A DNA stretch of 64,000 bases, taken from positions 3,730 to 67,729 of the forward strand of contig CAZAOT010000003.1 of the NCBI GenBank assembly GCA_964487045.1. The letters are read 5' to 3'. The notes beneath the pieces were generated by a model. It saw nothing but the letters and a program-made list of their open reading frames with translations. It was not told the DNA's origin and did not search any database. The translations under genes were made by a program, and so were the position numbers. Shown here piece after piece: positions 2,986 through 58,774 of this stretch (positions are counted from its first letter, which is position 1; every line of letters starts with the position of its first letter). This stretch comes from an uncultured Candidatus Saccharibacteria bacterium (GTDB lineage: Bacteria; Patescibacteriota; UBA1384; DTJR01).

Positions 2986-4080
2986 CTACTCATTTCTAAG
3001 TGGCATCACGATATATTTAAAGCTACCGTCTTCCTTATCGAGAATCATACCTGGATTGAGTGCGCCAGAAAGAGCAAATACAACCTCCTCGCCGGTAATA
3101 GAACTCAACGAGTCGAGGATATACTTTGCATTAAATGCGACGACCAGCGGACTCCCCTTGGTAGAAGCGGGAACATGGCTTTCGGCGTCCCCTGTCTGAG
3201 AAGATATCGCCGAAATCACAAGACCACTTTCGGAAGCGGCTATTTTAATATTTCCGCCACCTTCTCGGGCAAAGATATTAGCCATTTTAATAGCCTCGGA
3301 AAACTCATTCTTATTCATGATTGATTCATGGACAAATTCCTTAGGGATGATCTGCTCGTAATCAGGAAAGGCGCCATCTATCTGCCTGGATAAAAATTCA
3401 ATCTCGGCAAATCTAAACTGGACCTGATTCTCACCAGCTGAAATTTCTACTTCAGTCTTATCAGAAGGCAAAATTCTAGAGAGCTCTCCGATCGTGCGCT
3501 GTGGGATAACAACATCAAGCTCGGACGCGACACCAAGCTCTATCGTTTTTTCGGCTAAGCGATAACTATCGGTCGCAACCATCACCAAGTTTGTACCGAT
3601 TGTGCGAAAGAGTATTCCGGAGAGAACCGGGCGGGTCTCATCCAGTGCGGCGGCAACTATAACAGAGAGGATGGCAGACTTTAGCACCTCAGCAGGTACG
3701 ACTACTTTCTTATCTGTTGCAACCTGTGGAATAATCGGAAATTCTTCTGCCGAGATTCCTTTGATCGTTACGTGTTGGCGGGCACCTTTGACACTGATAT
3801 CTGCCCCCTCACTAATTAGCTCCAAAGTCTCATCAGTGATGGTTGAAATATAGTCTAGCAAGGTCCTTGCAGGCACGGTGATCGCGCCTTCCTCATCTAT
3901 CTTAGCGCCAATTCTTTCGACTATGGCTGCCTCTAAATCAGTCGATGCGAGCTTAAGCCTACCTTTGTCTGAGGCAATTAGTACATTGCCCAAGACCGGC
4001 AGAGTCGCTCTTTGTTTAACCATTCTCGATACAGTCTGCAGCCCCTTAAGCAGGTTTTCACGCTTTACACTTATCTTCAT
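2986..4080 (-). CDS. dnaN: DNA polymerase III beta sliding clamp
   Basis: 364 aa, three-domain clamp length. Position directly downstream of dnaA. Confidence 0.9.
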   Translation of the reverse strand: MKISVKRENLLKGLQTVSRMVKQRATLPVLGNVLIASDKGRLKLASTDLEAAIVERIGAKIDEEGAITVPARTLLDYISTITDETLELISEGADISVKGARQHVTIKGISAEEFPIIPQVATDKKVVVPAEVLKSAILSVIVAAALDETRPVLSGILFRTIGTNLVMVATDSYRLAEKTIELGVASELDVVIPQRTIGELSRILPSDKTEVEISAGENQVQFRFAEIEFLSRQIDGAFPDYEQIIPKEFVHESIMNKNEFSEAIKMANIFAREGGGNIKIAASESGLVISAISSQTGDAESHVPASTKGSPLVVAFNAKYILDSLSSITGEEVVFALSGALNPGMILDKEDGSFKYIVMPLRNE

Positions 4081-4286
4081 ATTACTCCTTACTTATTAAC
4101 CACTTATCCACACTCCTCCTTATTGTCTTGTGGATAACTTTGTGGATAAACCTGTGATTAAAGCTAATTTGCGGTGCAAAGATCGGCTTTTACACAATCC
4201 AAGTGCGGTTTATCAACATAGTTTTCCACAGCCTGACAAGGTTCTATCCACTATTTCCACAGCCTTACTATTATTACTTTTTATAA
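4081..4286. promoter_or_regulatory. dnaA-dnaN intergenic DnaA-box cluster (oriC part 2)
   Basis: TTATCCACA at 4105-4113. TGTGGATAA at 4129-4137 and 4141-4149. TTTTCCACA at 4222-4230. TATTTCCACAG at 4252-4262. Confidence 0.7.
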
Positions 4287-5624
4287 TTAACTAATTGATA
4301 ATAGTTGATTACGTAGATTTTCAATCGATTCTTTAATCGACTTATCTATCTTCAAAAGATCAGCAATCTTTTTCTCCGAATGCATAATAGTCGTATGATC
4401 TTTTCCACCCATGATCTTGCCAATCTCTGGGAGAGACTTGGTCGTCTGTTCTCTGATTAAATAAATTGCAATCTGTCTAGGCAAGACCAATTCTTTTTTT
4501 CTTCTCCCGCTTATAATTTCTTCCTTAGTTACGGAGTAGTACTTGCATACCGCAGTGATGATTTCGGCAGTATCCAGTTTCTTATTGGAGGAGGAGATTG
4601 TGTCTTTTAAGACCGAGGACGCTAGGTCAAGGGTGGGGGAGGCGGAGTTGAATTGGCAGAAAACCATCAGTCTGTTGAGTGCGCCTTCAAGCTCTCGAAC
4701 GTTCGAGTGAATGTTTTTAGCTAGATAGTTAATGACGTCGTCGGTTAGTATAAATCCCTTTTCCTTACATTTTTCGCTCAGGATGGCGATCCTGGTCTCT
4801 AAGTTTGGTGGTTGAATATCTACCACCATGCCACCGCCGAAACGGCTCTGCAATCGACCCTCGAGAGCGGGGATTGCTTGTGGTGGTTTATCAGCGGTCA
4901 TGATTATCTGTCTAGAGCTTTGATGAAGCGAGTTAAACGTATGAAAAAATTCTTCTTGGGAACCTTCCTTGGCGGATAAGAACTGGATGTCATCGACAAT
5001 CAGGATATCTACATCGCGGTAGTTTCTTTTAAACTCATTCATTTTGCGGCTGGCGATAGCATTAATAAAATCATTGGTGAAGGTTTCGCAAGAGACATAC
5101 ACAATTTTAGTATCTGGAGATTTTATCTTGACCTCGTGGCCTATTGCTTGAGCTAAGTGAGTTTTGCCAAGACCAACTCCGCCGTAAATAAATAGGGGAT
5201 TGTGCTTTTTGCCAGGGTTCTCGGCTACCTCTTTAGCGACCGCAAAAGCCAGTGCGTTATTGGAGGAAACAACGAATTTATCGAATGAATAATTGTCGTT
5301 GAGATTTATTTTGCCGGTGTCGCGGGGGACTGACTTGCGCTCTTGGGGTTTGACTTCAAGGGGAATCCTTTCGGCTTCACCAGAGCTCTTAATCTTATAT
5401 TTAATATCTTTTATATCACTCTGAGACTTCTGGATCGCCTCCAGAATTTGCCGATCGTGCTTGCTCCTTAGCCAGTCTCTGGAGAAGAGGTTGGGACAAA
5501 TAACAGTAGCTGTGCTACCATCGAGTTCAAGTGAAGTTCCTTTAAACCAAGTCAAGAATTGGGTCTTTGGTAATAAGACCTCCATTTCACCTAGTACTGC
5601 CTGCCAGACTCTGTCGTTTTGCAC
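4287..5624 (-). CDS. dnaA: Chromosomal replication initiator protein DnaA (GTG start with SD AAGGAGAGG)
   Basis: 445 aa. AAA+ Walker A GGVGLGKTHL. C-terminal DnaA-box-binding domain. Flanked by DnaA boxes. Confidence 0.95.
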   Translation of the reverse strand: MQNDRVWQAVLGEMEVLLPKTQFLTWFKGTSLELDGSTATVICPNLFSRDWLRSKHDRQILEAIQKSQSDIKDIKYKIKSSGEAERIPLEVKPQERKSVPRDTGKINLNDNYSFDKFVVSSNNALAFAVAKEVAENPGKKHNPLFIYGGVGLGKTHLAQAIGHEVKIKSPDTKIVYVSCETFTNDFINAIASRKMNEFKRNYRDVDILIVDDIQFLSAKEGSQEEFFHTFNSLHQSSRQIIMTADKPPQAIPALEGRLQSRFGGGMVVDIQPPNLETRIAILSEKCKEKGFILTDDVINYLAKNIHSNVRELEGALNRLMVFCQFNSASPTLDLASSVLKDTISSSNKKLDTAEIITAVCKYYSVTKEEIISGRRKKELVLPRQIAIYLIREQTTKSLPEIGKIMGGKDHTTIMHSEKKIADLLKIDKSIKESIENLRNQLLSIS

Positions 5625-5873
5625 GCCTCTCCTTTGAAGATTGAAAAGTTATCCACAAGCAACCTGAGTGTAGGTTGAATGCTATCCTGTCGTCAAGTGC
5701 CCTGTGGATAACTTAATTTTAAACCTGTAAATAATCAACTTAGATAAAATATTATATGTTCTTGTTCGGCTTTTGTTTCCATCGCCTGTGGATAACTTGT
5801 GGATAATTGTGGATAACTTTTTTATTGATTGTTTTGAAAAATATTTTTTGATGACCTTGTTTCTAAGTTAGCC
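5625..5873. promoter_or_regulatory. oriC part 1: DnaA boxes plus AT-rich unwinding region upstream of dnaA
   Basis: TTATCCACA at 5649-5657. TGTGGATAA at 5704-5712. Three tandem TGTGGATAA at 5787-5795, 5798-5806 and 5808-5816. AT-rich tracts at 5720-5760 and 5821-5850. Confidence 0.7.
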
Positions 5874-5902
5874 TTGATCTCTAGTTGCGATTCTGTTATA
5901 TT
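5874..5902 (+). promoter_or_regulatory. Sigma70-like promoter of GC-rich cassette A (TTGATC-N17-TATATT)
   Basis: -35 at 5874-5879 and -10 at 5897-5902 with a 17-nt spacer. Followed by SD GAGGAGG (5930-5936) and ATG at 5943. Confidence 0.5.
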
Positions 5903-5942
5903 CATACGATTGCAATCCAGAATACTCTCGAGGAGGGTTGTC

Positions 5943-6779
5943 ATGTACATTGGCAGACAGATGTATGATGAATCTGGTCTGAAGCTTTTGCCTGAGGTTG
6001 AGCTATGCTTTGGGCCGAGCGGGCAGTGGGCTGATCTAGCTAAGCTGCTTATTCTTTACAGCGAGCATGACCCCTATGACGCCTGGCGTCTCTGGTATCG
6101 GGCTATCGCTACCCAGCTTAGCTTTGAGCAGATGCTTGGGCTCGCTGGTCAGATGATAACGATCGCTACTCTTCGCCTCAGCAATGGCTTTGGCTCTTTC
6201 CCGGCTCCTCCTTCCCAAGATGCCCTAAGTTACTACCTGAGGGGTTCGAGGGTCTTGTCGGCTGCTGTCCGTCGGCTTGCTGCCTGGCAGTTCGACGGAG
6301 AAGGCAAGTACAGCTCTTTCTATGTGTTGCAGGATAAGATGCAGCTTGAGACCGCGCAGACTATCTATCGTCTGCCGTGGGATATGCCCTGCAACTGCCC
6401 GGAGGATCTCTCTGAAATTCTCGGGCAGTGTTGCGATGCTCTCGGGCGTTACGGTGTGGGTCCAGTCGGTAATCGTGAGTTCACGATCAATGTGCCTTTA
6501 CCATACGCTACCTGTACGACGCAGGTATCTTTCCAGTTTTACGCCACTGATGCCAACTGGATGCTTCATGGCGAGATTCCTTGCCCAGATATTGGTGTGC
6601 CAGAGATCTGGGTGAAGTCATCTGATCATGACGACGCACCTGAGTTGATCAGCTTCGGGGGTGGCAATCTCGCTGGCCTGGTGGCCCGCCTCGGTTTGCA
6701 TCCTACGATGACTCGGACGCAGATCAAGGACATTCTCTATACCCGCGTAGCTTACAGCTCGCATCCGCATAAGAGGTGA
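5943..6779 (+). CDS. Orphan protein A1 (278 aa) in a GC-rich island; no recognisable family
   Basis: Long ORF in markedly GC-rich DNA. SD-supported ATG at 5943 (the listed ORF begins at TTG 5874, which is the -35 box). Cys-rich patch CNCPEDLSEILGQCCD. Confidence 0.55.
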   Translation: MYIGRQMYDESGLKLLPEVELCFGPSGQWADLAKLLILYSEHDPYDAWRLWYRAIATQLSFEQMLGLAGQMITIATLRLSNGFGSFPAPPSQDALSYYLRGSRVLSAAVRRLAAWQFDGEGKYSSFYVLQDKMQLETAQTIYRLPWDMPCNCPEDLSEILGQCCDALGRYGVGPVGNREFTINVPLPYATCTTQVSFQFYATDANWMLHGEIPCPDIGVPEIWVKSSDHDDAPELISFGGGNLAGLVARLGLHPTMTRTQIKDILYTRVAYSSHPHKR

Positions 6780-6784
6780 GTGCG

Positions 6785-7345
6785 ATGCGCATACATAGAG
6801 AGCATTTTGCTCGTTTGGCGGCAGGCTCGGGTGCCGAGTGGCCGTTCGAGTGCAATGAGTGCGACTTGGAGCGTTTACTCTACGCGCTCTGGCATGACAA
6901 GATGCCGCTTGACCGCCAGCGGGTGCGTGAAATCCTGCCTCGTCTTCTGGTCGAGAATGTTCCTCTTGAGGGATTGATCCGACTTGGCTACGAGTCGCTG
7001 GCGCAATTTGCTCATGCGCTTTACATCTACTACTCGCAGGACATAGCGATCCTCGCCCAGCGGGAATTCGAAAGTAAGAATGGTCGAGTTGGCGCCCTCG
7101 GCGAGCGATTCGAGCAGATGAGCAATGTGGTGAAGCGCTTGCAGCATCTTGTGCTTGTGATGCCTAAGCTGATGGCTGAGACCCACGGTAGAGGTGGTGA
7201 AGGCGCGTTCATGATTACTCGCATGATTGCTTTGGCTCCACTTGATGGTCTTCAGGAGATGCTCGGCGAACATGCTGGGCATTGCTATGACTGGACCTAC
7301 TTCCAGACTCTCAGTCGGGTGATTGATGAGTCGAAGGCAAGTTAG
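6785..7345 (+). CDS. Orphan protein A2 (186 aa), co-transcribed with A1
   Basis: ATG at 6785 preceded by AAGAGG. Starts 5 nt after the A1 stop. Same high GC. Confidence 0.5.
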   Translation: MRIHREHFARLAAGSGAEWPFECNECDLERLLYALWHDKMPLDRQRVREILPRLLVENVPLEGLIRLGYESLAQFAHALYIYYSQDIAILAQREFESKNGRVGALGERFEQMSNVVKRLQHLVLVMPKLMAETHGRGGEGAFMITRMIALAPLDGLQEMLGEHAGHCYDWTYFQTLSRVIDESKAS

Positions 7346-7364
7346 TCTAGTTGGCTCTCTTCAT

Positions 7365-7400
7365 GGGGGCGGGATAATCCCGCCCCCATATTGTTTTTTC
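7365..7400 (+). terminator. Intrinsic terminator of cassette A
   Basis: GGGGGCGGG-ATAAT-CCCGCCCCC hairpin followed by ATATTGTTTTTT. Confidence 0.65.
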
Positions 7401-9124: not shown

Positions 9125-9156
9125 AAAAAGACGACCTTCTTAAGGTCGTTTTTTTG
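9125..9156 (-). terminator. Hairpin terminator after the tRNA-Ser 3'-end duplicate
   Basis: Minus strand: AAAAAAACGACCTTAAGAAGGTCGTCTTTTTG. Confidence 0.5.
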
Positions 9157-9175
9157 ATGGCGGAGAGGGTGGGAT
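9157..9175 (-). repeat. Direct duplicate of the last 18 nt of tRNA-Ser (T-loop end + acceptor 3' strand + CCA)
   Basis: TGGCGGAGAGGGTGGGAT occurs at 9158-9175 and again at 9283-9300 (plus strand). Confidence 0.8.
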
Positions 9176-9245
9176 CCTCGGCAAGCTGGACAAAGTCCAC
9201 TTGCCTTGCGAACCAGTCGTCGTGGGTTCGATCCAGACCCACGCA
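9176..9245 (-). repeat. Conserved structured arm element between tRNA-Ser and its 3' duplicate; homologous to 47260-47336
   Basis: Minus-strand sequence ...CTGGATCGAACC...GTTCGCAAGGC-[GGCAAG...CTTGCC hairpin]-GAGG. The same blocks occur after tRNA-Gln, with a compensatory hairpin (GGCGAT...ATCGCC). Confidence 0.45.
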
Positions 9246-9282
9246 TAAACAAAATACCGGCATCCTGCCGGCATTCCGTTTA

Positions 9283-9372
9283 TGGCGGAGAGGGTGGGAT
9301 TCGAACCCACGAGACCCTTGCGAGCCCAACAGTTTTCGAGACTGTCCTGTTCAACCACTCCAGCACCTCTCC
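9283..9372 (-). tRNA. tRNA-Ser (anticodon CGA), long variable arm, CCA encoded
   Basis: Minus strand: GGAGAGG-TG-CTGG..AGTGGTTGAA..-ACAGT-CTCGAAA-ACTGT-long variable arm-GTGGG-TTCGAAT-CCCAC-CCTCTCC-G-CCA. Upstream promoter TTGATT-N17-TAATAT at 9385-9413 (minus). Confidence 0.8.
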
Positions 9373-10863: not shown

Positions 10864-10926
10864 CAGTCAGTTGCGAACACAAGATCAAATCCCATCTTTT
10901 TGAGATTTTTTCGTATGGGTCTAGTA

Positions 10927-10953
10927 TTGACTTTCTGCGAGATTTGGTATAAT
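10927..10953 (+). promoter_or_regulatory. Promoter of cassette C (TTGACT-N15-TGgTATAAT extended -10)
   Basis: -35 at 10927-10932 and -10 at 10948-10953 with TGG upstream. Confidence 0.55.
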
Positions 10954-11037
10954 ATAACCAGTTCCGAGGGAACCTTGAATGATCGCAGAACGCGGCTGGT
11001 ACCAGCCGTAATCGCTAACTCCCATGGGAGGGAGATC

Positions 11038-11415
11038 ATGCCGCCCAACAGTCGCAAGGCAAGCGCCCCGCGTTATAGGGGGTGCGTTGCTCAGCACAAG
11101 GCGTTCGATGATATCTGCGCTCAGATGACGCCTGCCGAGAGGCAGGAGTTTCTGATCGGCATCGGCGTATGCATCGGCTCATCTGTCGAAGCTAGTCGCA
11201 CACGCTCGATGGTTCGCAGAGCAACAAAGGGGCTAATCGCTGACGGGTTTCATGTCGAAGCTGCCAGCGTATTGGTCTCGAACGGGATGAAGAAGGACGC
11301 ACTCGCCGCGGTCAAGGTAGGTCTTGCCTGTCACCCGAGCAAGAACGCCCAGGACCTCGAGGTCCGCATCCGGCTTGTCGAGTTGGAGAGCGCAGCCGAA
11401 AGGCTACCGTCGTGA
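11038..11415 (+). CDS. Orphan protein C (125 aa) in a GC-rich island
   Basis: SD GGGAGGGAG then ATG at 11038. The listed ORF start at 10900 lies upstream of the promoter. No family recognised. Confidence 0.5.
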   Translation: MPPNSRKASAPRYRGCVAQHKAFDDICAQMTPAERQEFLIGIGVCIGSSVEASRTRSMVRRATKGLIADGFHVEAASVLVSNGMKKDALAAVKVGLACHPSKNAQDLEVRIRLVELESAAERLPS

Positions 11416-11458
11416 CGCAAATTCAAGGTTCCCTCCCCAGCCACGCCTAGCGTGGCAC

Positions 11459-11494
11459 AAGGGGCACGGCCGATCACCGTGCCCCTTTTACTTT
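11459..11494 (+). terminator. Intrinsic terminator of cassette C
   Basis: AGGGGCACGGCCGATCACCGTGCCCCT hairpin followed by TTTACTTTG. Additional hairpin CCACGCCTAGCGTGG just before it. Confidence 0.6.
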
Positions 11495-11630
11495 GTCCTA
11501 ATTTTTTCTCCTATGGTAAAATAGAGTTTGGATTGTAGATATGTGACAAGCTGTCGCTTTAGCGACACCAAAATTAGAACTTAGTAATTAAAAATTAAAA
11601 ATTTGCCGTTAGCTTCTGAGGCAGATTTTA

Positions 11631-13277
11631 GTGCATCGACGATATTTAGTAAGGAGGAATTTGGGCGACGATATAAGTAAGGCGTTGAAGATGTTCTCCC
11701 GCGAGGAGGAGGAAAAATTAGCCCGCGATCAGGCGGCCAGGCTTGGCTATCCTTATATTAATTTAGTTGGCTTCCCGTTCACTCCAGAGGTAATTAGTGT
11801 CTTGCCTAAAGACCAGTCCAAGGCTTTGCAGGCGGTTTCTTTTTATAAATTAAACGACGTAGTTAAGGTCGCAACGAGTAATCCAAAGAATCCTGAGCTC
11901 GTTCCATTTTTGAAAGATTTGGCTGCAGCGACAAACTTGAAATTTTACTTGTATTTTTGCTCCGACTCCTCGCTAAAATACGGCTTAGCGCAGCTTGAGT
12001 TCGTCAAGGAAGCGCCAAAGACCATGGAAAAGCACGTGATCTCAAACGACTATATACAAGGCAAATTTGGGGGCGCTCAGGACCTTCAAGCCATCGGCCA
12101 AAAGATCCTTGAAACGTCCGTTACCGATATCATGGACATCATTTTTGCTGGGGCAATTCATCTTGATGCATCCGATATTCACATCGAGCCGATTGAGTCA
12201 GGAGCGCGTCTTCGTTATCGAATCGATGGAATCTTGCAAGACATTATCACGCTTCCCGAGGATACATATAAGGCGCTTCGTAATCGTATTAAGTACCTGT
12301 GCAAAATGAAGATGAACATTACCGAGGAACCGCAGGACGGGCGCTTTGATGTAGAAATTGGCGGCAAAAGCATTGATATCAGGGTTTCGCTTATGCCGAG
12401 CGCATGGGGCGAGGTAATTGTCACCAGGTTACTTAATCCATCCGGGGCGATGGTGACTTTGGAAGAGCTTGGTTTTAATCAGAAGGCGCTTGCGGATATT
12501 GAAGAGGCGATCAAAAAGCCTAATGGTGCGATTTTCAACACAGGTCCAACCGGTTCGGGAAAAACAACGACTTTGTATTCTATTTTGCAAAAATTAAACT
12601 CTCCAGAAGTTAAAATCATAACCCTTGAAGATCCGATCGAGTACCGTATCGCTGGGATCGATCAGAGTCAGGTAAATCCAGAAGCTGGGTTTGACTTTGC
12701 CTCGGGCTTAAAGCACGCCCTTAGACAAGATCCGGACATTATCATGGTTGGAGAAATTCGCGACAAGGAGACCGCCGAAACAGCACTTCAGGCTGCACTA
12801 ACCGGACATTTGGTTTTGACTACCCTGCACACCAATTCCGCTCCATCTGCAATTCCTAGAATGATCGATTTGGGGGTCAGGCCGTTTCTTTTATCAGGCT
12901 CGATTAATTTAATTATCGCTCAAAGACTTGTTCGAAAACTTTGCCAAGCATGTAAGGGTGCGGGCAAGGGTTGCGCCGAATGCCGAGGCACGGGCTACAA
13001 GGGTAGAGTCGCCTTGATCGAAACTTTGAAAATTACGCCTAGGATAGAAGAACTAATTGCGAAACAGGCGAATGTAACTGAGTACGAGCGAGTTGCTAGA
13101 GAAGAGGGGATGATCCCGATGCGTGAGGATGGCTTGGCTAAGGTCAAGGCTGGCATTACAACCGAAGAGGAAGTAAATCGAGTGACTAGTGAGGAAGTGC
13201 CCGCTCCGAAACCATCACAGCCAGCAGCAGATGCTGCGCAGCCCGAGCAGACTTCGGCCATACCGCCGCAGGTTTAG
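11631..13277 (+). CDS. Type II/IV secretion-system ATPase (PilB/GspE family). True start possibly the TTG near 11664, after AAGGAGG.
   Basis: GSPII_E N-terminal domain. Walker A GPTGSGKTT. Asp/His boxes. C-terminal tetracysteine CQAC...CAEC zinc motif. Confidence 0.85.
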   Translation: MHRRYLVRRNLGDDISKALKMFSREEEEKLARDQAARLGYPYINLVGFPFTPEVISVLPKDQSKALQAVSFYKLNDVVKVATSNPKNPELVPFLKDLAAATNLKFYLYFCSDSSLKYGLAQLEFVKEAPKTMEKHVISNDYIQGKFGGAQDLQAIGQKILETSVTDIMDIIFAGAIHLDASDIHIEPIESGARLRYRIDGILQDIITLPEDTYKALRNRIKYLCKMKMNITEEPQDGRFDVEIGGKSIDIRVSLMPSAWGEVIVTRLLNPSGAMVTLEELGFNQKALADIEEAIKKPNGAIFNTGPTGSGKTTTLYSILQKLNSPEVKIITLEDPIEYRIAGIDQSQVNPEAGFDFASGLKHALRQDPDIIMVGEIRDKETAETALQAALTGHLVLTTLHTNSAPSAIPRMIDLGVRPFLLSGSINLIIAQRLVRKLCQACKGAGKGCAECRGTGYKGRVALIETLKITPRIEELIAKQANVTEYERVAREEGMIPMREDGLAKVKAGITTEEEVNRVTSEEVPAPKPSQPAADAAQPEQTSAIPPQV

Positions 13278-34142: not shown

Positions 34143-34475
34143 CTAGATGAGTCCGGCGCCACGGAGGGCGGCCTGGACTGCGGCATCTGCCGCAGCCTGG
34201 CGTCCAGCTCCGCGGCCGAACCTGGCCCAGTTATTGACGACCGTGTTGGTCGCCAGATCGAGCTGGGCCGGCGTGGGGGCGGGGACTCCTGCGGCCGTCA
34301 GGGCCGCGGTGATAACCGTGAGCTGCGCCGGCGACGCTACAGCCGGAGCCGCCGGGTTAGCGCCCGGAGCTGTCGGCATGGTAGCCGAGCCAGCCGGACG
34401 GTTGCCCGTCACGTACGTGGTCGCTCCCGAGGGAGCGATCGTGAGGGCACTGGCCGGTCCCTCCATCATGCCCAA
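34143..34475 (-). CDS. GC-rich segment J: Ala/Pro/Gly-rich 110-aa ORF (coding status uncertain, no SD) or ncRNA
   Basis: About 70% GC by eye. Minus-strand TTGACA at about 34531-34526 matches the cassette promoter family. 5' hairpins. ATG preceded by the palindrome GCCCAATTGGGC, no SD. Confidence 0.3.
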   Translation of the reverse strand: MGMMEGPASALTIAPSGATTYVTGNRPAGSATMPTAPGANPAAPAVASPAQLTVITAALTAAGVPAPTPAQLDLATNTVVNNWARFGRGAGRQAAADAAVQAALRGAGLI

Positions 34476-34556
34476 TTGGGCAATGGAGGTGCCGAAGGCC
34501 GGCCCGTCGTTAGGCCGGCGCCAAATGTCAAGATTCGGCGCAATAATAATGAATAA

Positions 34557-34637
34557 AGAAATCCGAAATCCGAAAAAATTCCTAAATAATCAATTTGATT
34601 TTTTGTATTTGTTATTTATTCTTCATTCTGGTTTGAT
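34557..34637 (+). repeat. AT-rich intergenic repeat, copy 1 (about 90% identical to 37481-37553)
   Basis: GAAATCCGAAATCCGAAAAAATTCCTAAATAATCAATTTGATTTTTTGTATTTGTTATTTATTCTTCATTCT. Confidence 0.7.
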
Positions 34638-34667
34638 GTTTTGTCTATTATTCTTTATTCTTAATTT

Positions 34668-35159
34668 ATGCAAATAGAATCATTCGATGGACAGAAAAAA
34701 GGGGAGAAAATCATCGCTGTTTGGCGGAGTCATATGTGGATTATGAGTCGAGCAGGATTCATCTTTGCTTTGTTTATAGTAATTGGCTCGATTCCGTTAG
34801 CTTTCACCTCCGCTTCCTGGGGAGCGGGTTTTTTACTGGTTTGCCTCGCTATCGGAGGAATTTACCTAGTAATGCAGATTTACCTATATGTCAGCAGCAT
34901 TTATATACTGACCAACGAGCGCGTTCTCTCAATTAACCAATCAAAACTTCTGATGAGGTCGATCAATGACGTTCCGCTTTCGAATATTCAAAATGTTTCC
35001 CATACCAGGAAGGGCTTATTTCAAATGCTTATGGATTATGGGGTCGTCGAGGTTCAGACAGCCGGATCGACTACGGCTATGACGCTCAAAAACGTGCCGC
35101 ATCCTTATCGAGTCCAGCAAAAAATTTTAACGCGAGAAGAGCGATTAAAATCAGAATAA
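34668..35159 (+). CDS. Bacterial PH-domain membrane protein (YdbS/DUF304-like)
   Basis: 163 aa. Two N-terminal TM helices then a bPH-like domain. Leaderless-like AT-rich start. Confidence 0.65.
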   Translation: MQIESFDGQKKGEKIIAVWRSHMWIMSRAGFIFALFIVIGSIPLAFTSASWGAGFLLVCLAIGGIYLVMQIYLYVSSIYILTNERVLSINQSKLLMRSINDVPLSNIQNVSHTRKGLFQMLMDYGVVEVQTAGSTTAMTLKNVPHPYRVQQKILTREERLKSE

Positions 35160-37382: not shown

Positions 37383-37480
37383 AAAAATCCTTTGGTAATT
37401 TCTTACTTATTGGCTAGATCTTACCATACGAAGGGATCTTTTTCAATTTTATAGCACGAGCTTGAGAATTCTCAAATTAA

Positions 37481-37553
37481 GAAATCCGAATAACGAAAAA
37501 ATTCCTAAATTATCAATTTGAGTTTTTTGTATTTGTTATTTATTCTTCATTCT
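37481..37553 (+). repeat. AT-rich intergenic repeat, copy 2
   Basis: GAAATCCGAATAACGAAAAAATTCCTAAATTATCAATTTGAGTTTTTTGTATTTGTTATTTATTCTTCATTCT. Confidence 0.7.
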
Positions 37554-37586
37554 TTTTTCTGGCTTGGTTATTATTCATGCCCAGTC

Positions 37587-37615
37587 TTGACATTTAGTGT
37601 CTTTTATGGTATATT
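37587..37615 (+). promoter_or_regulatory. Promoter of cassette D (TTGACA-N17-TGgTATATT)
   Basis: -35 at 37587-37592 and -10 at 37610-37615. SD AAAGGGGTG before ATG 37684. Confidence 0.6.
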
Positions 37616-37683
37616 ACTTCGATCGCTTGGAACTGGATTTTATCCAGCCGGCGACGCAACTACCCTAAAGGGGTGTTTCATTC

Positions 37684-38832
37684 ATGGCTAAGATGATCGG
37701 GATTGTTCGGTTGGGTGGGGAGCATCTCGTCGCTGAGGACTCAACGTTCCTCATCGGCGAGCTCAACAATGGTGACGAGGTATTCGTCGCCGGTAAGCCC
37801 CGTGGCACTGCCCGGCGCGTCGCTGAGACGCTCGGCAAGGACCAGGTCTTCCTGGTCTGCGAACTGGTCGAAAACGACCGCGGTGGCCAGAAGTATCGGG
37901 TCACCGAACCCGTGCAGGTGCTCGGGCTGGCCGAGAGCTTCGGCTCCCGCAACATGCTGCCCGCGGCTCTGCCCGGGCGCTTCGAGGGTTGGCTCGACAT
38001 GCTCCGCGACGGCAAGTTGCGGAAGGTGCGGGTCCCCGCCGATCTGGCTCTGGAAGGTCCCGCCCTCGCCCCCTCGCCGACCACCCCGCCGACCGCCCTG
38101 GGCGCCGCGCTCGGGAAGGCCGGCATGAAGGCCACCGAGGCGCCCGCCACCGAGGCGCCGCAGTCCACGCTGATCGACAGCGCGGGTGCGGCCAAGATCA
38201 TCGCGGAGGGCATCAAGGCCCTCCGGCCGGTCACGAGCGCTCTCGTCGTTACCGACCAGGAGCGCGACGCGCTCCAGGAGGCGATCGGCGCCCGCTTCCC
38301 GCGGGCGGCATTCGACTCCAGCCAGGCTGCGTCGGCCCAGGCCAACATGGAGCGCGTGCTCCAGGACGTACAGCAGCGCCGCCGCGAGGCGGCCGAGCAT
38401 TTCTTCGCCGAACTCGCGTCGTTCTGCGAGGGCAATATGGCCCTCCAGCTCGGCGTCCTCGGTGGGGATCTGCCGACGCTCAACGAGAAGGGGAACCCCA
38501 CCTGGGGCTCCACTCTCGACGAGCTCCTCGGTACCATGTCCACCGCCGAGGCTGCTGTTCTCGGCGCGACCGATCTGCCGGGCTACCCCGAGCCGGACTT
38601 GGCCCAAGGTCGTGGCGATGACCAGCCCGAACCCCCGCCGGATCCCGAGGGCGACAAGCCCGAAGACGAAGCCGAGGCCGCCACGGCCGAGGAGGGCGTC
38701 CACCCCATCGCCGCTGCCCAGGAGGGTGGCGTCAAGGCTGAGAAGGCCGCGCCCGCGACTACCAAGAAGCCGGCGGCGCGCAAGCCTCGCAAGACGGCAG
38801 CCGAGAAGGCCGCGACCGGCACCGACGGCTAG
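37684..38832 (+). CDS. Orphan protein D (382 aa), very GC-rich, with a C-terminal Ala/Pro/Lys/Glu-rich histone-H1-like tail
   Basis: About 65-70% GC by eye. All six frames are open around it, so only the promoter/SD-supported frame is called. Tail ...KAEKAAPATTKKPAARKPRKTAAEKAATG. Confidence 0.5.
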   Translation: MAKMIGIVRLGGEHLVAEDSTFLIGELNNGDEVFVAGKPRGTARRVAETLGKDQVFLVCELVENDRGGQKYRVTEPVQVLGLAESFGSRNMLPAALPGRFEGWLDMLRDGKLRKVRVPADLALEGPALAPSPTTPPTALGAALGKAGMKATEAPATEAPQSTLIDSAGAAKIIAEGIKALRPVTSALVVTDQERDALQEAIGARFPRAAFDSSQAASAQANMERVLQDVQQRRREAAEHFFAELASFCEGNMALQLGVLGGDLPTLNEKGNPTWGSTLDELLGTMSTAEAAVLGATDLPGYPEPDLAQGRGDDQPEPPPDPEGDKPEDEAEAATAEEGVHPIAAAQEGGVKAEKAAPATTKKPAARKPRKTAAEKAATGTDG

Positions 38833-38878
38833 ATCCTAGCCGGTTTCGTCCAGTAAGGAGGCTGGACACATGAACTCT

Positions 38879-38918
38879 AGAGGCGCGACGTCATTTGACG
38901 GAGCGCCTCTTTTCTTTG
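38879..38918 (+). terminator. Intrinsic terminator of cassette D
   Basis: GAGGCGCGACGTCATTTGACGGAGCGCCTC hairpin followed by TTTTCTTTG. Confidence 0.6.
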
Positions 38919-40213: not shown

Positions 40214-40401
40214 GAAAGAATCAAGGAGAAAAGATGTAGAATTGTCAAATTAACAATTAAAAATGTCCAATCAATTATTAAATTCATAAATTAATAATTT
40301 GATTAATTTTCACATTAAGACATTTTTTAAAACATTCAACATTGTTAATTTGGAAATTCGTAAATATCTATTGTTAATTTATTAATTTTTGGCCCATATA
40401 C

Positions 40402-40430
40402 TTGACTTTTGGGGCGTTTTGTGGTATATT
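40402..40430 (+). promoter_or_regulatory. Promoter of cassette E (TTGACT-N17-TGgTATATT)
   Basis: -35 at 40402-40407 and -10 at 40425-40430. About 150-nt structured leader with hairpin CCCTCGC-TTGA-GCGAGGG. Confidence 0.6.
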
Positions 40431-40586
40431 ATCTTGTTCACGATTAGGAGGGGAAAGATCTCTTGGTCGAGAACGTTGACAATTCGAACCCCCTCGCTTG
40501 AGCGAGGGAGACATGCCGGACGAGGTCTCATCCTCCTCGTCATTGCAGCAGCGCTGCCGGTAACCATCACCTAGGAGGTGATTCGG

Positions 40587-41597
40587 ATGAGTAAGATCGA
40601 CCCGCGTTTCGATGGTATGGTTGTGGATTCTGTAGAGCAGGTCGGGACTGTCCCGGCTGAGCTCATCGCTGCGTTCCCGGAGCTCGGCGACGCAATGTAT
40701 TGCGTCGTTGAAATAGCCCGTGGGCAGCGCCGCAACAAGTATGTTGCGGCTGTCCGGCGCCAGTGCGCAAGCGCCGACTTCCGGGACGGCAGTGGTCCAG
40801 GCCACTGCCATTGGTTCTTTGATGCGGACTACAAGTCCGTCAAGGAGCTCGTTCGCGCGACGCGGTGGGCTATGCCCGCCGTGACCGACATGAGCACGCG
40901 CCAGCTCGGCGCACTGCTCGTTGCTGCGATCCGTCGTGGCAACTGCGAAATCGTAGTTGGCGATGTTGTTGTCGCTAGCTACGGAGGCTTCCTCGAGGAG
41001 GCCCTTCGCGAAATGGTTCGCCGCTCGCAAGCGGCGAACAGCCTCAAGGACGAAGCCAGCCGTTGGCTGGCGCAGCACTTTGAGGACGAGTCCATCGCCG
41101 TTGATGGCGGCTGGACTCACCCGGCCATTGACTGGCTGGCGTGGGTATTCGCCAGTCGTCAGCGCGAAAGCGCATTTGGCGATCTCGGTGGGGAGGCGAA
41201 CCGCTGGGTTCGGGAAACGCCCATCACGGGCGGACCTGAGCAGTGGGGCTGCCTGCGGGGTTTGCCCGCCGTACGCACCGAGGTCCGGGCATACGAAGAT
41301 CGCGGCGCGGAGCCGCAGATCTACCTCCCCAACGGGGAGAATTTCTCCGTCCGCCGCCTCATCGGCGGTGGGTACTTCCGCCTCGCGGAGGATGGGGTCT
41401 ACGACCTCTTCCTGCGCCGCGGGGCGGCGGAGATCGGTGACAAGGGCCTGATGTGGGCCCGCGTCACTGAGGACGGAAAGGTTGTCGCGGCGGTCGATCC
41501 GCTGCACAACTATGGGGGTTTGGGCGAGTTTGCCTATACCCCCCTGATGGGGCGCCTGCACAAGGCTCTCCAGGCGGCCGTTGCTGCCGAACAGTAG
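40587..41597 (+). CDS. Orphan protein E (336 aa) in a GC-rich island
   Basis: SD AGGAGG (40573-40578) then ATG at 40587. No family recognised. Antisense 395-aa ORF judged spurious. Confidence 0.5.
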   Translation: MSKIDPRFDGMVVDSVEQVGTVPAELIAAFPELGDAMYCVVEIARGQRRNKYVAAVRRQCASADFRDGSGPGHCHWFFDADYKSVKELVRATRWAMPAVTDMSTRQLGALLVAAIRRGNCEIVVGDVVVASYGGFLEEALREMVRRSQAANSLKDEASRWLAQHFEDESIAVDGGWTHPAIDWLAWVFASRQRESAFGDLGGEANRWVRETPITGGPEQWGCLRGLPAVRTEVRAYEDRGAEPQIYLPNGENFSVRRLIGGGYFRLAEDGVYDLFLRRGAAEIGDKGLMWARVTEDGKVVAAVDPLHNYGGLGEFAYTPLMGRLHKALQAAVAAEQ

Positions 41598-41603
41598 GAA
41601 GCA

Positions 41604-41660
41604 CAGGCCGGTACCGAGTTATCCGCAAGGATGACAAGGTGCCGGCCTTCTGCATTTTAT
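41604..41660 (+). terminator. Intrinsic terminator of cassette E
   Basis: AGGCCGGTACC...GGTGCCGGCCT hairpin followed by TCTGCATTTTAT. Confidence 0.55.
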
Positions 41661-41725: not shown

Positions 41726-42082
41726 TTATGCTTCTTCAAGAAGAGTCAATCTTTTCTGAAGGGATATAAGTTCCCGATTCCAGTGGAGGGCCATCAGGAG
41801 AATGGCAGGTCGTCGGAAACGATAATCTAGCTGCTCCTCCAGTCTCGCGTTGAGACTGGAGATTAGGCCGACGCGGATGCGCGCCGGCTGTCACAGCCGA
41901 GGCTGAAGCAACCCATGAGGATTGACAAGTAATCCGACCCCGGTCGAAAGGCCATCAACAAGGTCGGATCGAGATCATGAACCATGGTTGATCATCAGCC
42001 GATTCGGCACAAAGGGAGACGCTTGCTTGACGCTTGCATCTCCCTTTTTCGTTAATCTAAAAAAGCCCTTTCGGGCTTTTCT
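41726..42082 (+). ncRNA. Candidate structured non-coding RNA (about 360 nt), promoter-to-terminator, GC-rich
   Basis: No ORF over 23 codons. Multiple perfect hairpins (CCAGTCTC..GAGACTGG, GGGAGACG..TCTCCC). Ends in terminator AAAAAAGCCCTTTCGGGCTTTTCT (42056-42082). No RNase P, tmRNA or SRP signature motifs found. Confidence 0.35.
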
Positions 42083-53715: not shown

Positions 53716-53744
53716 CTTGAATTTTTATATACAAATTGCTATTA
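53716..53744 (+). promoter_or_regulatory. Promoter of H2 (TTGAAT-N17-TATTAT)
   Basis: -35 at 53716-53721 and -10 at 53739-53744. SD GGGAGG at 53830-53835. Confidence 0.45.
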
Positions 53745-53840
53745 TTTCTTCTTCTGTAATAGGTGGTCATTGACATTTGTATGGAGAAGAAACACCCGCA
53801 TCGACTTTGGTCGACGGGTTCAAGAAACGGGAGGTATACG

Positions 53841-58765: not shown

Positions 58766-58774
58766 TTATGTTAC

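What the first reader, a model, noticed from the sequence alone, without database searches (positions are those of the whole stretch)
10927..11494. Self-contained promoter-RBS-ORF-terminator cassette C (125 aa orphan) in GC-rich DNA
This is a textbook expression unit dropped between rdgB and the pilB gene. It has TTGACT with an extended -10 TGgTATAAT, a GGGAGGGAG SD, a 125-aa ORF and a 9-bp GC hairpin followed by Ts. The architecture and GC contrast recur about ten times in this window.
Basis: partly seen in the sequence, partly recalled or inferred. Interest (0 to 1): 0.5.

Follow-up and report, generated by a model that had tools for sequence, protein, structure and literature searches.

The report
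Conserved loop-closed mRNA gene upstream of pilB
The GC-rich "cassette" is not a recent foreign insert: it is a small protein gene kept directly upstream of the pilus ATPase gene pilB in a poorly sampled uncultured bacterial lineage, and the two untranslated ends of its mRNA pair with each other in a helix that is more conserved than the protein.

Summary

The "dropped-in foreign DNA" reading fails. Five other sequence variants of the unit exist in independent metagenome assemblies. All six sit directly upstream of pilB, usually after rdgB.

The ORF is under purifying selection (dN/dS about 0.1). It has no Pfam, PHROG or PADLOC match. The family has only four 50%-identity clusters among about 15 billion proteins. 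The model is a six-helix, TPR-like repeat.

It starts about 6 nt after the predicted transcription start and ends 6 nt after the stop codon. It is kept in all variants through compensatory substitutions, compensatory indels and G·U pairs. A leader hairpin also covaries. The UTRs are 76-95% identical, the ORF 63-81%.

My best reading is a monocistronic mRNA closed by a 5'-UTR/3'-UTR helix, like B. subtilis hbs and S. aureus icaR. I infer that the helix controls mRNA stability or translation.

The GC contrast persists in every orthologue even though synonymous sites are near saturation. I could not explain this.

The parts
10927..10932 (+). -35 hexamer TTGACT
   Evidence: TTGACw is kept in L002, L003, L004 and L007.
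10945..10955 (+). Extended -10 TGgTATAAT (10945-10953), overlapping the alternative TAATAT (10950-10955). The predicted transcription start is near 10960.
   Evidence: The block TTTGkTATAATATAAyC is nearly invariant in five variants, and L010 has TGGTATAAA. The start site is inferred, not measured.
10961..10973 (+). Hairpin at the 5' end, GUUCC-GAG-GGAAC. It shares GGGAAC with the long-range helix, so the two exclude each other.
   Evidence: Local folds. A palindrome is kept at this place in all variants (GUUCC..GGAAC, GUUC..GAAC, GUCC..GGAC).
10966..10980 (+). 5' arm of the closing helix, GAGGGAACCUUGAAU
   Evidence: It is a perfect 15-nt inverted repeat with 11421-11435. It covaries in L002, L003, L004 and L010. 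Pair probability is about 1.0 in five full-length folds.
10992..11009 (+). Leader hairpin P2, GCGGCUGG-UA-CCAGCCGU, with a conserved UGGUACC apex
   Evidence: In one search all 42 of 42 cells are paired. Three of 7 pairs have changes on both sides, and 5 of 6 sequences have U·G at one pair. The slid controls give 19-67% paired.
11019..11034 (+). Anti-SD CUCCC (11019-11023) facing the SD GGGAGGGAG (11026-11034). The predicted hairpin covers the 3' half of the SD.
   Evidence: MFE and partition-function folds. It is present in 5 of 6 variants and absent in L010.
11038..11415 (+). Protein-coding ORF of 125 aa: a six-helix, TPR-like repeat protein with a conserved GFHVEAASVLVSN motif
11421..11435 (+). 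3' arm of the closing helix, AUUCAAGGUUCCCUC. It starts 6 nt after the stop codon and carries an anti-SD-like UCCCUCCCC run.
11440..11456 (+). 3'-UTR hairpin GCCACGC-CUA-GCGUGGC
   Evidence: A hairpin sits at this place in 5 of 6 variants with differing sequence (GNRA loop in L003, a longer stem in L004).
11459..11494 (+). Intrinsic terminator: an 11-bp stem (8 G-C pairs), a 7-nt loop, then UUUUACUUUG
   Evidence: The stem covaries in L003 (GGGGCUCGG/CCGAGCCCC) and L007 (GGGGCCCAG/CUGGGCCC).
11493..11522 (+). pilB promoter directly after the terminator: TTGTCC, 18 nt, then TGGTAAAAT
   Evidence: TGGTAAAATAGA follows the unit in every locus that extends far enough, including L010. This is context and not part of the transcript.

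Best explanation
Cassette C is a vertically inherited, lineage-restricted gene of an uncultured bacterium. The lineage is probably Patescibacteria/CPR, but that placement is weakly supported. The gene sits directly upstream of the type IV pilus assembly ATPase gene pilB.

**Transcription (inferred from sequence and conservation).** The gene has its own near-consensus extended -10 promoter, with the start near 10960. An intrinsic terminator ends the transcript near 11490. The result would be a monocistronic mRNA of about 530 nt.

**RNA structure (shown by conservation and covariation).**
- The first nucleotides of the 5' UTR pair with the 3' UTR just after the stop codon. This 13-16-bp helix closes the mRNA around the whole ORF.
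- A covarying leader hairpin (P2) follows the 5' arm.
- An anti-SD/SD hairpin precedes the start codon.
- A second 3' hairpin lies before the terminator.

**Function of the helix (inferred).** The closed, end-protected fold controls mRNA life-time and translation. Both ends would be shielded from 5'-end-dependent and 3' exonucleolytic decay. The C-rich anti-SD-like 3' arm would be kept away from the strong SD. Because the helix starts 6 nt after the stop codon, terminating ribosomes must melt it. The closest experimentally studied case is the 14-bp 5'/3'-UTR interaction of B. subtilis hbs mRNA.

**The protein (inferred).** It is a small cytoplasmic helical-repeat (TPR-like) protein. It is probably a protein-binding adaptor, and its invariable position next to pilB suggests a link to pilus assembly.
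For: **Orthology and position.**
- Six sequence variants all lie directly 5' of pilB. Five lie after rdgB. L010 lies after yidC and tRNA-Ser.
- No copy was found in viral contigs. The leader pattern hit only one contig in the JGI metagenome collection. No copy was found in 185,579 GTDB species genomes, nor near pilB in 80 other loci.

**It is coding.**
- dN/dS is 0.09-0.11, and third-position changes dominate (53-62 of 78-100 differences).
- The start codon is fixed by in-frame stops in the orthologues' leaders.

**The UTR frame is more conserved than the ORF.** Against the window, the 5' UTR is 82-87% identical and the 3' UTR 76-95%. The ORF is 63-81% and the flanking genes 70-77%.

**Closing helix.**
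- It is perfect over 15 nt in the window.
- L002 has 16 nt, with one extra A matched by one extra U.
- L010 has CGCGGGACCUU / AAGGUCCCGCG. That is four changes on both sides plus a matched one-base deletion in each arm.
- L004 has a G·U pair.
- Duplex energies are -26 to -29 kcal/mol in all six. L010's 3' arm fits its own 5' arm at -26.8, but the others only at -13.5 to -18.4.
- Pair probability is about 1.0 in five full-length transcripts.
- Whole-transcript folding z-scores are -3.4 to -6.1.

**Leader hairpin P2.** It is 100% paired, with 3 of 7 pairs compensatory. Its U·G pairs only work in the sense-strand RNA.

**Published comparators.** The hbs mRNA has a 14-nt 5'/3' long-range interaction just upstream of the terminator, which modulates RNase Y cleavage (PMC5737220). 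In icaR, a 3'-UTR UCCCC motif pairs with the SD (PMC3868564). Anti-SD-like sequences far from the RBS repress expression in B. subtilis (PMC12697547).
Against: - There are no transcript data. The start site, the terminator function and the fold are all predictions.
- Only six variants exist, and four of them share an identical 13-nt helix core. The covariation in the closing helix therefore rests mainly on L010, with smaller contributions from L002, L003 and L004.
- MAFFT could not register L010's arms. That helix was therefore scored with my own script and by eye, not with the pair-counting tool.
- Covarying inverted repeats are also expected for paired DNA sites.
- The -35/-10 spacer is 15 nt if TATAAT is the -10, which is suboptimal.
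- The T-run has only 4 U before an A, so read-through into pilB is possible.
- The maintained GC-richness is not explained by this model. ORF-only folding z-scores are inconsistent, from -1.1 to -6.0.
Confidence: 0.6

Rival explanations
1. Foreign 'moron-like' expression cassette. Under this reading, a promoter-ORF-terminator module from a GC-rich donor (phage, plasmid or high-GC host) was recently inserted between rdgB and pilB.
For: - The ORF is 0.60 GC against about 0.43-0.47 for its neighbours.
- It carries its own promoter and terminator.
- Similar GC-rich orphan units recur in the window.
- The neighbouring tRNA-Ser to rdgB interval really is variable between relatives and carries a tRNA fragment.
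Against: - The unit is present at the same place in all six variants, whose flanks have diverged to 70-77% DNA identity.
- Synonymous sites are near saturation, yet GC3 is kept in every lineage. A neutral import would have drifted towards the host's composition.
- No homologue exists outside this lineage among about 15 billion proteins.
- Nothing was found in viral contigs.
- A single ancient acquisition by the clade's ancestor cannot be excluded.
Confidence: 0.1
2. The inverted repeat acts at the DNA level. It could be the ends of an invertible segment (the promoter is outside, so the ORF would switch on and off). It could be the terminal repeats of a small mobile element. It could also be two operator copies bound by one protein, giving DNA looping or autoregulation.
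For: - A perfect 15-bp inverted repeat flanks the SD and the ORF, with the promoter outside it.
- The two arms change together, as two sites read by one protein would.
- The 5' arm overlaps a DNA palindrome, GTTCC-N3-GGAAC, at +2 to +14. That is a typical operator position.
Against: - All six variants, and all further identical contigs, have the same orientation.
- There is no recombinase or transposase gene at the locus.
- The arm sequence occurs nowhere else in the window and does not recur elsewhere in the other held loci.
- There are no target-site duplications.
- L004 and L003 keep complementarity only through G·U pairs, which is a mismatch at the DNA level.
- The adjacent leader hairpin shows clear RNA-type covariation with U·G pairs.
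- The arms lie exactly inside the predicted transcript, next to the start site and just after the stop codon.
Confidence: 0.08
3. The closing helix is mainly an RNase III processing site. Read-through or longer transcripts, such as rdgB-C-pilB, would be cut at the roughly 20-bp stem that the flanks form. This would release a defined C mRNA and uncouple it from pilB, as happens with rRNA precursors and phage T7 early mRNAs.
For: - The helix is 15-16 bp. After a 3-nt internal loop it has a 2-4-bp extension towards the stop codon, so its total length is about 20-22 bp.
- The icaR 5'/3' duplex is an RNase III substrate (PMC3868564).
- The terminator's T-run is short, so read-through is plausible.
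Against: - The strong conserved promoter places the transcription start only about 6 nt before the 5' arm, so no processing is needed to define the 5' end.
- Whether this genome has RNase III is unknown, because only 64 kb are available.
- This rival is a sub-mechanism of the best explanation rather than an exclusive alternative.
Confidence: 0.15
4. A hok-like type I toxin-antitoxin, or another addiction-type module. Such modules are kept silent by a 5'/3' fold-back of the mRNA until it is processed at the 3' end.
For: - A 5'/3' fold-back enclosing a small ORF, with partial SD masking, resembles the fbi/tac pairing of hok mRNA. That comparison rests on my own knowledge, not on a paper read here.
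Against: - The product is a 118-150-aa soluble helical-repeat protein (GRAVY -0.27 to 0.07; model), not a hydrophobic peptide of under 60 aa.
- It has no PADLOC or Pfam toxin hit.
- It is a single-copy gene at a fixed locus in all relatives, not a scattered or plasmid-borne one.
- No antisense promoter was noted.
Confidence: 0.03

Closest known systems
B. subtilis hbs mRNA 5'/3'-UTR long-range interaction (Braun, Durand and Condon 2017, PMC5737220)
   Same: - Both are small monocistronic mRNAs with a strong SD and a structured leader.
- Both have about 14 nt of full complementarity between the 5' UTR and a 3'-UTR segment just upstream of the intrinsic terminator. The energy is -19 kcal/mol in hbs and -26 to -29 kcal/mol here.
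- In hbs the pairing modulates RNase Y cleavage and couples stability to translation.
   Different: - Here the 5' arm sits at the very 5' end (+6), not downstream of two leader hairpins.
- It competes with a hairpin at the 5' end.
- The 3' arm lies 6 nt after the stop codon and is anti-SD-like.
- The gene is unrelated to hbs, which encodes HU.
- There is no experimental evidence here.
- The helix is conserved with covariation across deeply diverged orthologues.
S. aureus icaR mRNA 3'-UTR/SD pairing (Ruiz de los Mozos et al. 2013, PMC3868564)
   Same: - Both have a C-rich 3'-UTR motif: UCCCCUG in icaR and UCCCUCCCC here.
- The motif is complementary to the SD of the same mRNA.
- In icaR the long-range duplex is a potential RNase III substrate.
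   Different: - The predicted and covarying partner of the 3' arm here is the 5'-terminal arm, not the SD.
- The SD complementarity is lost in L010.
- The 3' UTR here is about 75 nt, not over 300 nt.
hok mRNA fold-back (fbi/tac) of hok/sok type I toxin-antitoxin systems (my own knowledge)
   Same: In both, the 5' and 3' ends of the full-length mRNA pair to give a compact and stable form whose translation is restrained.
   Different: - The product here is not a small membrane toxin.
- No antisense RNA is evident.
- The gene is a chromosomal single-copy orthologue.
Phage 'morons': autonomous promoter-gene-terminator modules of deviant composition (my own knowledge)
   Same: Both have their own promoter and terminator and a base composition different from their neighbours.
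   Different: - This unit is not in a prophage.
- It shows no presence/absence polymorphism among relatives.
- Its composition is maintained over long divergence.
Small TPR-like adaptor and chaperone proteins (for example PcrH/SycD, Tah1, PilW)
   Different: - No TPR profile matches.
- No partner is known.

Membership tests
Bacterial mRNAs with a 5'-UTR/3'-UTR long-range interaction (hbs type) | At least 13-14 nt of contiguous complementarity between the 5' UTR and the 3' UTR upstream of the terminator of the same transcript | tested here: met
   The perfect repeat is 15 nt, at 10966-10980 / 11421-11435. The orthologues have 11-16 bp.
Bacterial mRNAs with a 5'-UTR/3'-UTR long-range interaction (hbs type) | Pairing supported independently of one sequence, by covariation or mutational rescue | tested here: met
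   There are compensatory substitutions, matched indels and G·U pairs in L002, L003, L004 and L010. The sample is small, at six variants.
Bacterial mRNAs with a 5'-UTR/3'-UTR long-range interaction (hbs type) | The pairing changes RNase cleavage, mRNA half-life or translation in vivo | not testable with these tools
   This needs reporter and rifampicin-chase experiments.
icaR-type 3'-UTR anti-SD control | The 3'-UTR motif pairs with the SD of the same mRNA | tested here: inconclusive
   UCCCUCCC is complementary to GGGAGGGA in 5 of 6 variants. That duplex (-29.6 kcal/mol) is close in energy to the closing helix. However, full-length folds pair the 3' arm with the 5' arm at probability about 1.0, and L010 lacks the SD complementarity.
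Recently acquired island or moron | Presence/absence polymorphism: relatives with the two flanking genes adjacent | tested here: not met
   All six variants carry the unit directly upstream of pilB.
Recently acquired island or moron | Deviant base composition together with an own promoter and terminator | tested here: met
Invertible DNA segment (inverton) | Both orientations present in sequence data, and a site-specific recombinase nearby | tested here: not met
   Every contig has one orientation. The neighbours are rdgB and pilB. No read-level data were available.
MITE or IS-type mobile element | Multiple copies, and target-site duplication next to the terminal inverted repeats | tested here: not met
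   The arm sequence occurs only at this locus in the window. No flanking direct repeat is present.
hok-like type I toxin-antitoxin | A small hydrophobic toxin peptide and a cis-antisense RNA | tested here: not met
   The product is a soluble 118-150-aa helical protein. There is no PADLOC hit. An antisense RNA was not tested.
Retron (msr-msd flanked by a1/a2 repeats) | A reverse transcriptase gene adjacent, with a non-coding msr/msd between the repeats | tested here: not met
   A selected protein-coding ORF lies between the arms. The downstream gene is pilB.
Any Rfam family (leader, riboswitch or sRNA) | A covariance-model match | tested here: not met
   There is no match even at E <= 10 for 10880-11640, and none at the gathering score for the window except two tRNAs.
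TPR (Pfam clan) proteins | A sequence-profile match to TPR repeats | tested here: not met
   No Pfam hit was found for any of the six members. Only a generic helical-repeat fold similarity exists.

The most novel reading that the evidence does not exclude
Cassette C may be the anciently fixed member of a lineage-specific class of 'hardened' expression units. The class would share these traits:
- GC-rich orphan genes or ncRNAs in an AT-richer genome.
- The same strong extended -10 promoter type, a hairpin at the 5' end, and a strong terminator.
- An association with AT-rich palindromic modules of about 100-120 nt that move between promoters in related genomes.

Their composition would be actively maintained, by selection for long-lived RNase-resistant mRNAs or by GC-biased gene conversion at recombining cassettes. 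In C, the closed-loop mRNA would act as a translation-coupled switch placed in front of the pilus ATPase gene. This would be a previously undescribed way of organising accessory gene expression in an uncultured, probably episymbiotic, bacterial lineage.
Probability: 0.15. Interest if true: 0.7.

Novelty: new member of a known kind. Interest (0 to 1): 0.45.

Why it matters
Well-supported 5'-UTR/3'-UTR helices in bacterial mRNAs are few; hbs, icaR and hok are the known cases. Most were found one gene at a time by experiment. Here comparative sequence alone gives such a helix, with compensatory changes, in an uncultured lineage. The UTR frame is also under tighter constraint than the protein it serves.

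The locus offers a clean, testable model. The helix is 15 bp, the transcript is about 530 nt, and the alternative pairings are obvious. It could show how end-to-end pairing, SD masking and translation termination set mRNA life-time.

It also points to an unannotated small protein family that is invariably linked to pilB. Type IV pili are thought to be central to the episymbiotic life-style of such bacteria.

The analysis shows that compositional contrast plus a 'textbook' promoter and terminator is not evidence of recent horizontal transfer. It leaves a real puzzle: GC3 stays near 0.7 in a genome where GC3 is about 0.4.

Tried and rejected
**Searches that found nothing useful.**
- Pfam, PHROGs and PADLOC scans of the protein gave no hits.
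- A profile search against PDB sequences gave only noise, with E >= 0.15.
- Rfam found nothing, at the gathering score or at E <= 10.
- The protein-motif scan of GTDB genomes found no relative.
- The PilB-based scan gave only hits of 48% identity or less (best-segment identity 36-48%). None carries the UTR motif or the protein. The taxon therefore stays uncertain, and no empty-site relative was obtained.
- The leader DNA pattern gave 0 hits in viral contigs and only the already known contig in JGI metagenomes.
- I tried to reach the NCBI record (a 232,796-nt contig) for the organism name, but it was not returned.
- A literature search for GC-rich islands in Patescibacteria was unproductive.

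**Methods that did not work.**
- MAFFT alignments of the concatenated UTRs put L010's and L002's arms out of register. The closing helix was therefore scored with my own scripts instead of the pair-counting tool.
- Whole-UTR duplex energies against shuffles do not discriminate in GC-rich UTRs (z about -1).

**Ideas tested and dropped.**
- The other cassettes do not have a comparable uninterrupted closing helix. No other inverted repeat of 14 nt or more flanks a unit.
- Whole-ORF RNA structure does not explain the GC-richness, because the z-scores are inconsistent.
- Ordinary translational selection does not explain it either, because native highly expressed genes have low GC3.
- I considered and rejected retron, integron attC, MITE, inverton and type I toxin-antitoxin readings (see the membership table).
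Full report
**1. The observation**

- TTGACT lies at 10927-10932.
- TGgTATAAT lies at 10945-10953. The spacer to the -35 is 15 nt. The overlapping TAATAT gives the 17-nt spacing that the scan tool reports.
- GGGAGGGAG lies at 11026-11034, six bases before the ATG at 11038.
- The ORF encodes 125 aa and ends at TGA 11413-11415.
- The terminator hairpin has 11 pairs (8 G-C) at 11459-11487 and is followed by TTTTACTTTG.

The neighbours are a Ham1/RdgB-family gene and a T2SSE/PilB ATPase. The ORF is 0.60 GC with GC3 0.69, against 0.43 / 0.40 for rdgB and 0.47 / 0.49 for pilB.

On their own, the consensus promoter and terminator matches are no more frequent than in shuffled sequence. Their credibility comes from conservation, described below.

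The recurrence claim also holds:
- About ten further GC-rich stretches exist.
- Their ORFs have no Pfam hit.
- Several units carry the same promoter type, TTGACw-N17-(TG)nTATAwT, and a strong hairpin plus T-run.

**2.

A perfect 15-nt inverted repeat flanks the ORF: GAGGGAACCTTGAAT at 10966-10980 and ATTCAAGGTTCCCTC at 11421-11435. The left arm begins about 6 nt after the predicted transcription start. The right arm begins 6 nt after the stop codon. The arm sequence occurs nowhere else in the window.

**3. Relatives**

A search of 5.8 billion protein clusters found three proteins: one identical, one 85% identical and one 79% identical. An exhaustive profile search of 1.84 billion cluster representatives returned four clusters in all: P0003 again, plus three distant ones, P0004 to P0006, at 34-42% identity.

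Their contigs come from independent Logan, ENA and JGI assemblies. They give six distinct sequence variants of the locus: window (identical to L001), L002, L003, L004 (identical to L005), L006-L009, and L010.
- In five variants the gene lies between a Ham1p_like gene and a T2SSE gene.
- In L010 it follows yidC and tRNA-Ser(cga), and the next gene starts MSDINKALQIFSREGEEK, which is the PilB N-terminus.
- In the window, yidC and tRNA-Ser(cga) lie just upstream of rdgB as well. The wider neighbourhood is therefore also shared.

The unit is thus always directly 5' of pilB. The following searches found no other copy:
- No relative is encoded in 185,579 GTDB species genomes.
- The best PilB matches there are 36-48% identical and come mostly from Patescibacteria, Saccharibacteria and Parcubacteria MAGs. 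None of those 80 loci has the leader motif or the protein.
- The leader pattern is absent from viral contigs. In the JGI metagenome collection it occurs only in the contig already found.

The lineage is therefore poorly sampled. Its assignment to Patescibacteria is an inference.

**4. It is a real gene and an old one**
- Against L002 and L003, differences concentrate at third codon positions (53 and 62, against 12-23 at positions 1 and 2).
- dN/dS is 0.09-0.11.
- The proportion of synonymous differences is already 0.57-0.65, and it is 0.68-0.85 for the distant pairs.
- In the orthologues, in-frame stop codons lie 27-102 nt upstream of the SD-preceded ATG. The 125-aa reading is therefore right, and the 145-171-aa gene calls are artefacts.
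- Flanking genes are 70-77% identical in DNA between the variants.

**5. The untranslated frame is the most conserved part**

Identity to the window is 82-87% for the promoter plus 5' UTR and 76-95% for the 3' UTR. The ORF is 63-81% identical.

The shared frame is as follows:
- Upstream: TTGACw ... TTTGkTATAATATAAyCwGTTCCGAGGGAACCTTGA, a variable stretch, GCGGCTGGTACCGGCCGCAAtCGC, then ACTCCCATGGGAGGGAGAtcATG.
- After the stop codon: N6-9, TCAAGGTTCCCTCCCC, a hairpin, the terminator, and then TGGTAAAATAGA. That last block is the extended -10 of the pilB promoter.

**6. The two ends pair, at the RNA level**

The arms change together:
- L002 has one extra A in the 5' arm and one extra T in the 3' arm, giving 16 bp.
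- L003 continues past a G/A mismatch with U-A, U-A, U·G and G-C.
- L004 keeps 14 bp through a G·U pair.
- L010 has CGCGGGACCTT / AAGGTCCCGCG. That is four positions changed on both sides, plus one base deleted in each arm.

Duplex energies of the arm regions are -25.8 to -29.1 kcal/mol in all six variants. L010's 3' arm gives -26.8 with its own 5' arm, but only -13.5 to -18.4 with the others.

In full-length folds of five variants the helix core has pair probability of about 1.0 (0.89-1.0). The MFE structure of the window transcript contains the helix. Its folding z-score is -4.7, and the orthologues give -3.4 to -6.1.

The leader hairpin P2 (10992-11009) was counted with the tool:
- All 42 of 42 cells are paired.
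- Three of seven pairs have changes on both sides (C-G/U-A, G-C/A-U, C-G/G-C).
- One pair is U·G in five of six sequences, which can only pair in the sense-strand RNA.
- Shifted controls give 19-67% paired.

The terminator stem also covaries: GGGGCACGG, GGGGCUCGG and GGGGCCCAG, each with its complement. No Rfam family matches the region even at E <= 10.

**7. Further anatomy**
- The 5' arm overlaps a small hairpin at the 5' end, GUUCC-GAG-GGAAC at 10961-10973. This hairpin is kept as a palindrome in all variants, and it excludes the long-range helix.
- An upstream CUCCC (11019-11023) is predicted to pair with the 3' half of the SD in five of six variants.
- The 3' arm with its tail, UUCCCUCCCC, is anti-SD-like. 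It could pair with GGGAGGGAG almost as well as with the 5' arm (-29.6 kcal/mol for the best whole-UTR duplex). In the complete transcript, however, the 5'-arm partner wins, and L010 lacks the SD complementarity.

**8. The protein**

AlphaFold2 gives a confident six-helix model from a three-sequence alignment: mean pLDDT 80.8, with the N-terminal 14 residues disordered.
- Foldseek against the PDB returns only TPR-like proteins at E >= 0.3.
- No sequence profile matches.
- The most conserved segment is GFHVEAASVLVSN.

It is best described as a small cytoplasmic helical-repeat, TPR-like protein of a new and very small family. A role with PilB is suggested only by the invariable gene order.

**9. 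Mechanism proposed**

Shown:
- The gene is orthologous and sits at a fixed position.
- It is protein-coding and under purifying selection.
- The UTR elements are conserved and covarying, and they include an end-to-end helix.

Inferred:
- The unit is transcribed from its own promoter as an mRNA of about 530 nt.
- During synthesis the 5' hairpin protects the nascent end.
- Once the 3' arm is made, the stronger closing helix forms. The mRNA then has both ends buried, and the anti-SD-like 3' segment is sequestered.
- Because the helix starts 6 nt after the stop codon, terminating ribosomes must open it. This couples translation to the fold.

The nearest experimentally studied case is the B. subtilis hbs mRNA. 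[quoted passage not shown] In S. aureus icaR, a 3'-UTR UCCCC motif pairs with the SD, blocks initiation and creates an RNase III site (PMC3868564). In B. subtilis, anti-SD-like octamers hundreds of nucleotides from the RBS repress expression, and their effect depends on neighbouring sequence (PMC12697547).

An RNase III-processing role for the stem of about 20 bp is a compatible sub-mechanism.

**10. Rivals**

*Recent foreign insertion.* This is contradicted by the fixed position in all variants, by near-saturated synonymous sites with GC3 still high, and by the absence of any donor. A single ancient acquisition cannot be excluded.

*DNA-level function of the repeat (inversion, mobility or paired operators).* This is disfavoured for four reasons:
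- Every contig has the same orientation.
- There is no recombinase at the locus, no other copy and no target duplication.
- Complementarity is kept through G·U pairs.
- The neighbouring hairpin shows RNA-type covariation.

Deep read-level data were not available, so inversion at low frequency is not excluded.

*Type I toxin-antitoxin or retron.* Both readings fail on defining features (see the membership table).

**11. What stays unexplained**

The GC contrast is kept in all six variants. ORF GC is 0.56-0.63 and GC3 is 0.60-0.73, while the neighbours have GC3 0.38-0.58. This holds despite near-saturation of synonymous sites.
- Native genes expected to be highly expressed (L27, EF-P, SSB) have GC3 0.34-0.40. 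Ordinary codon selection is therefore not the cause.
- Folding z-scores of the ORF alone are inconsistent, from -1.1 to -6.0.
- Untested ideas are selection against AU-rich RNase sites, GC-biased gene conversion, and repeated replacement from a GC-rich pool.

The other GC-rich units of the window are orphans too. The 382-aa ORF at 70% GC has a single homologue at 98% identity, and the 241-aa ORF has three. They share the promoter type and often a hairpin at +1 or +2. None has a comparable closing helix.

**12. Verdict**

The unit is a conserved, lineage-specific small gene in front of pilB, with an mRNA closed by a covarying 5'/3'-UTR helix. It is a new, comparatively well-supported member of a known but sparsely populated kind of bacterial mRNA architecture, and it encodes a protein of a new small family.

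Interest is moderate. It would rise if the maintained GC-richness and the shared features of the roughly ten cassettes turn out to reflect one mechanism.

Noticed in passing
window 4127-5821: This is the chromosomal replication origin. Clusters of DnaA boxes (TTATCCACA) lie on both sides of dnaA (4287-5624, minus strand), with dnaN (2986-4080) and recF (1857-2915) next to it. The GC skew changes sign near 4400.
   Followed up: partly
window 9154-9372: tRNA-Ser(cga) lies at 9283-9372 on the minus strand. Its 3' 22 nt are repeated at 9154-9175 (95% identity), next to a T-arm-like stretch at 9220-9240. This may be an integration scar. The tRNA-Ser to rdgB interval holds a different GC-rich orphan ORF in each relative: 241 aa here, 134 aa in L004, and 114 plus 144 aa in the P0005 contig.
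   Followed up: partly
window 5874-7389, 37587-38910, 40402-41650, 47419-48240, 51344-51783, 53717-54377: These are further GC-rich self-contained units. Most have TTGACw-N17-(TG)nTATAwT-type promoters and several end in a hairpin plus T-run. Their ORFs have no Pfam hit. The 382-aa ORF at 37684-38832 is 70% GC (GC3 0.85) and has only one homologue, at 98% identity, among 5.8 billion clusters. Most leaders begin with a hairpin at +1 or +2.
   Followed up: partly
window 41726-42050 and 58767-59750: Two GC-rich units have a strong promoter (41691 and 58737) and a terminator but no convincing ORF. In the second, GC is about equal at all three codon positions. They are candidate structured non-coding RNAs of about 320 and 980 nt. 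No Rfam match was found.
   Followed up: partly
window 40239-40359; L007 562-680; L009 194-312: An AT-rich palindromic element of about 120 nt (arms 40239-40266 / 40332-40359) lies upstream of the promoter at 40402. It is 85% identical to the element that sits just upstream of cassette C's promoter in L007 and L009. So a MITE-like or regulatory module is found in front of different cassettes in related genomes.
   Followed up: partly
window 34552-34653 and 37475-37576: A 103-nt AT-rich direct repeat (86% identity) lies next to two GC-rich cassettes: the 34143-34475 ORF on the minus strand and the 37587 unit.
   Followed up: no
L009 1-200 versus window 34669-34834: In the short contig L009 the gene upstream of cassette C is not rdgB. 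It is a reversed homologue of the window gene at 34668-35159 (75% identity). The protein is otherwise identical to the one in L006-L008. This is either a rearrangement at the AT-rich repeat or an assembly chimera.
   Followed up: no
L003 488-820 (minus strand): L003 carries an extra GC-rich 110-aa ORF with its own terminator, inserted between rdgB and cassette C. It has only weak PHROG hits, the best at E=0.009.
   Followed up: no
window 10984-10995 and 58805-58816: The 12-nt motif CGCAGAACGyGG is shared by the leader of cassette C and the leader of the 58737 unit. Five of 100 shuffles give two or more hits, so this may be chance.
   Followed up: partly
window 11631-11663: pilB most likely starts at TTG 11661 (SD AAGGAGG at 11651-11657), not at GTG 11631. 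This is judged from the aligned starts in L003 (GTG) and L010 (ATG).
   Followed up: partly
window 13351-34016: A block downstream of pilB on the minus strand holds T4SS_pilin-type pilins, an Amidase_3/Peptidase_M23 protein, a TraG-like P-loop ATPase, and very large ORFs (1459 and 816 aa) without Pfam hits. The part next to pilB (pilin and cell-wall hydrolase genes) is shared with L004 and the P0005 contig.
   Followed up: no
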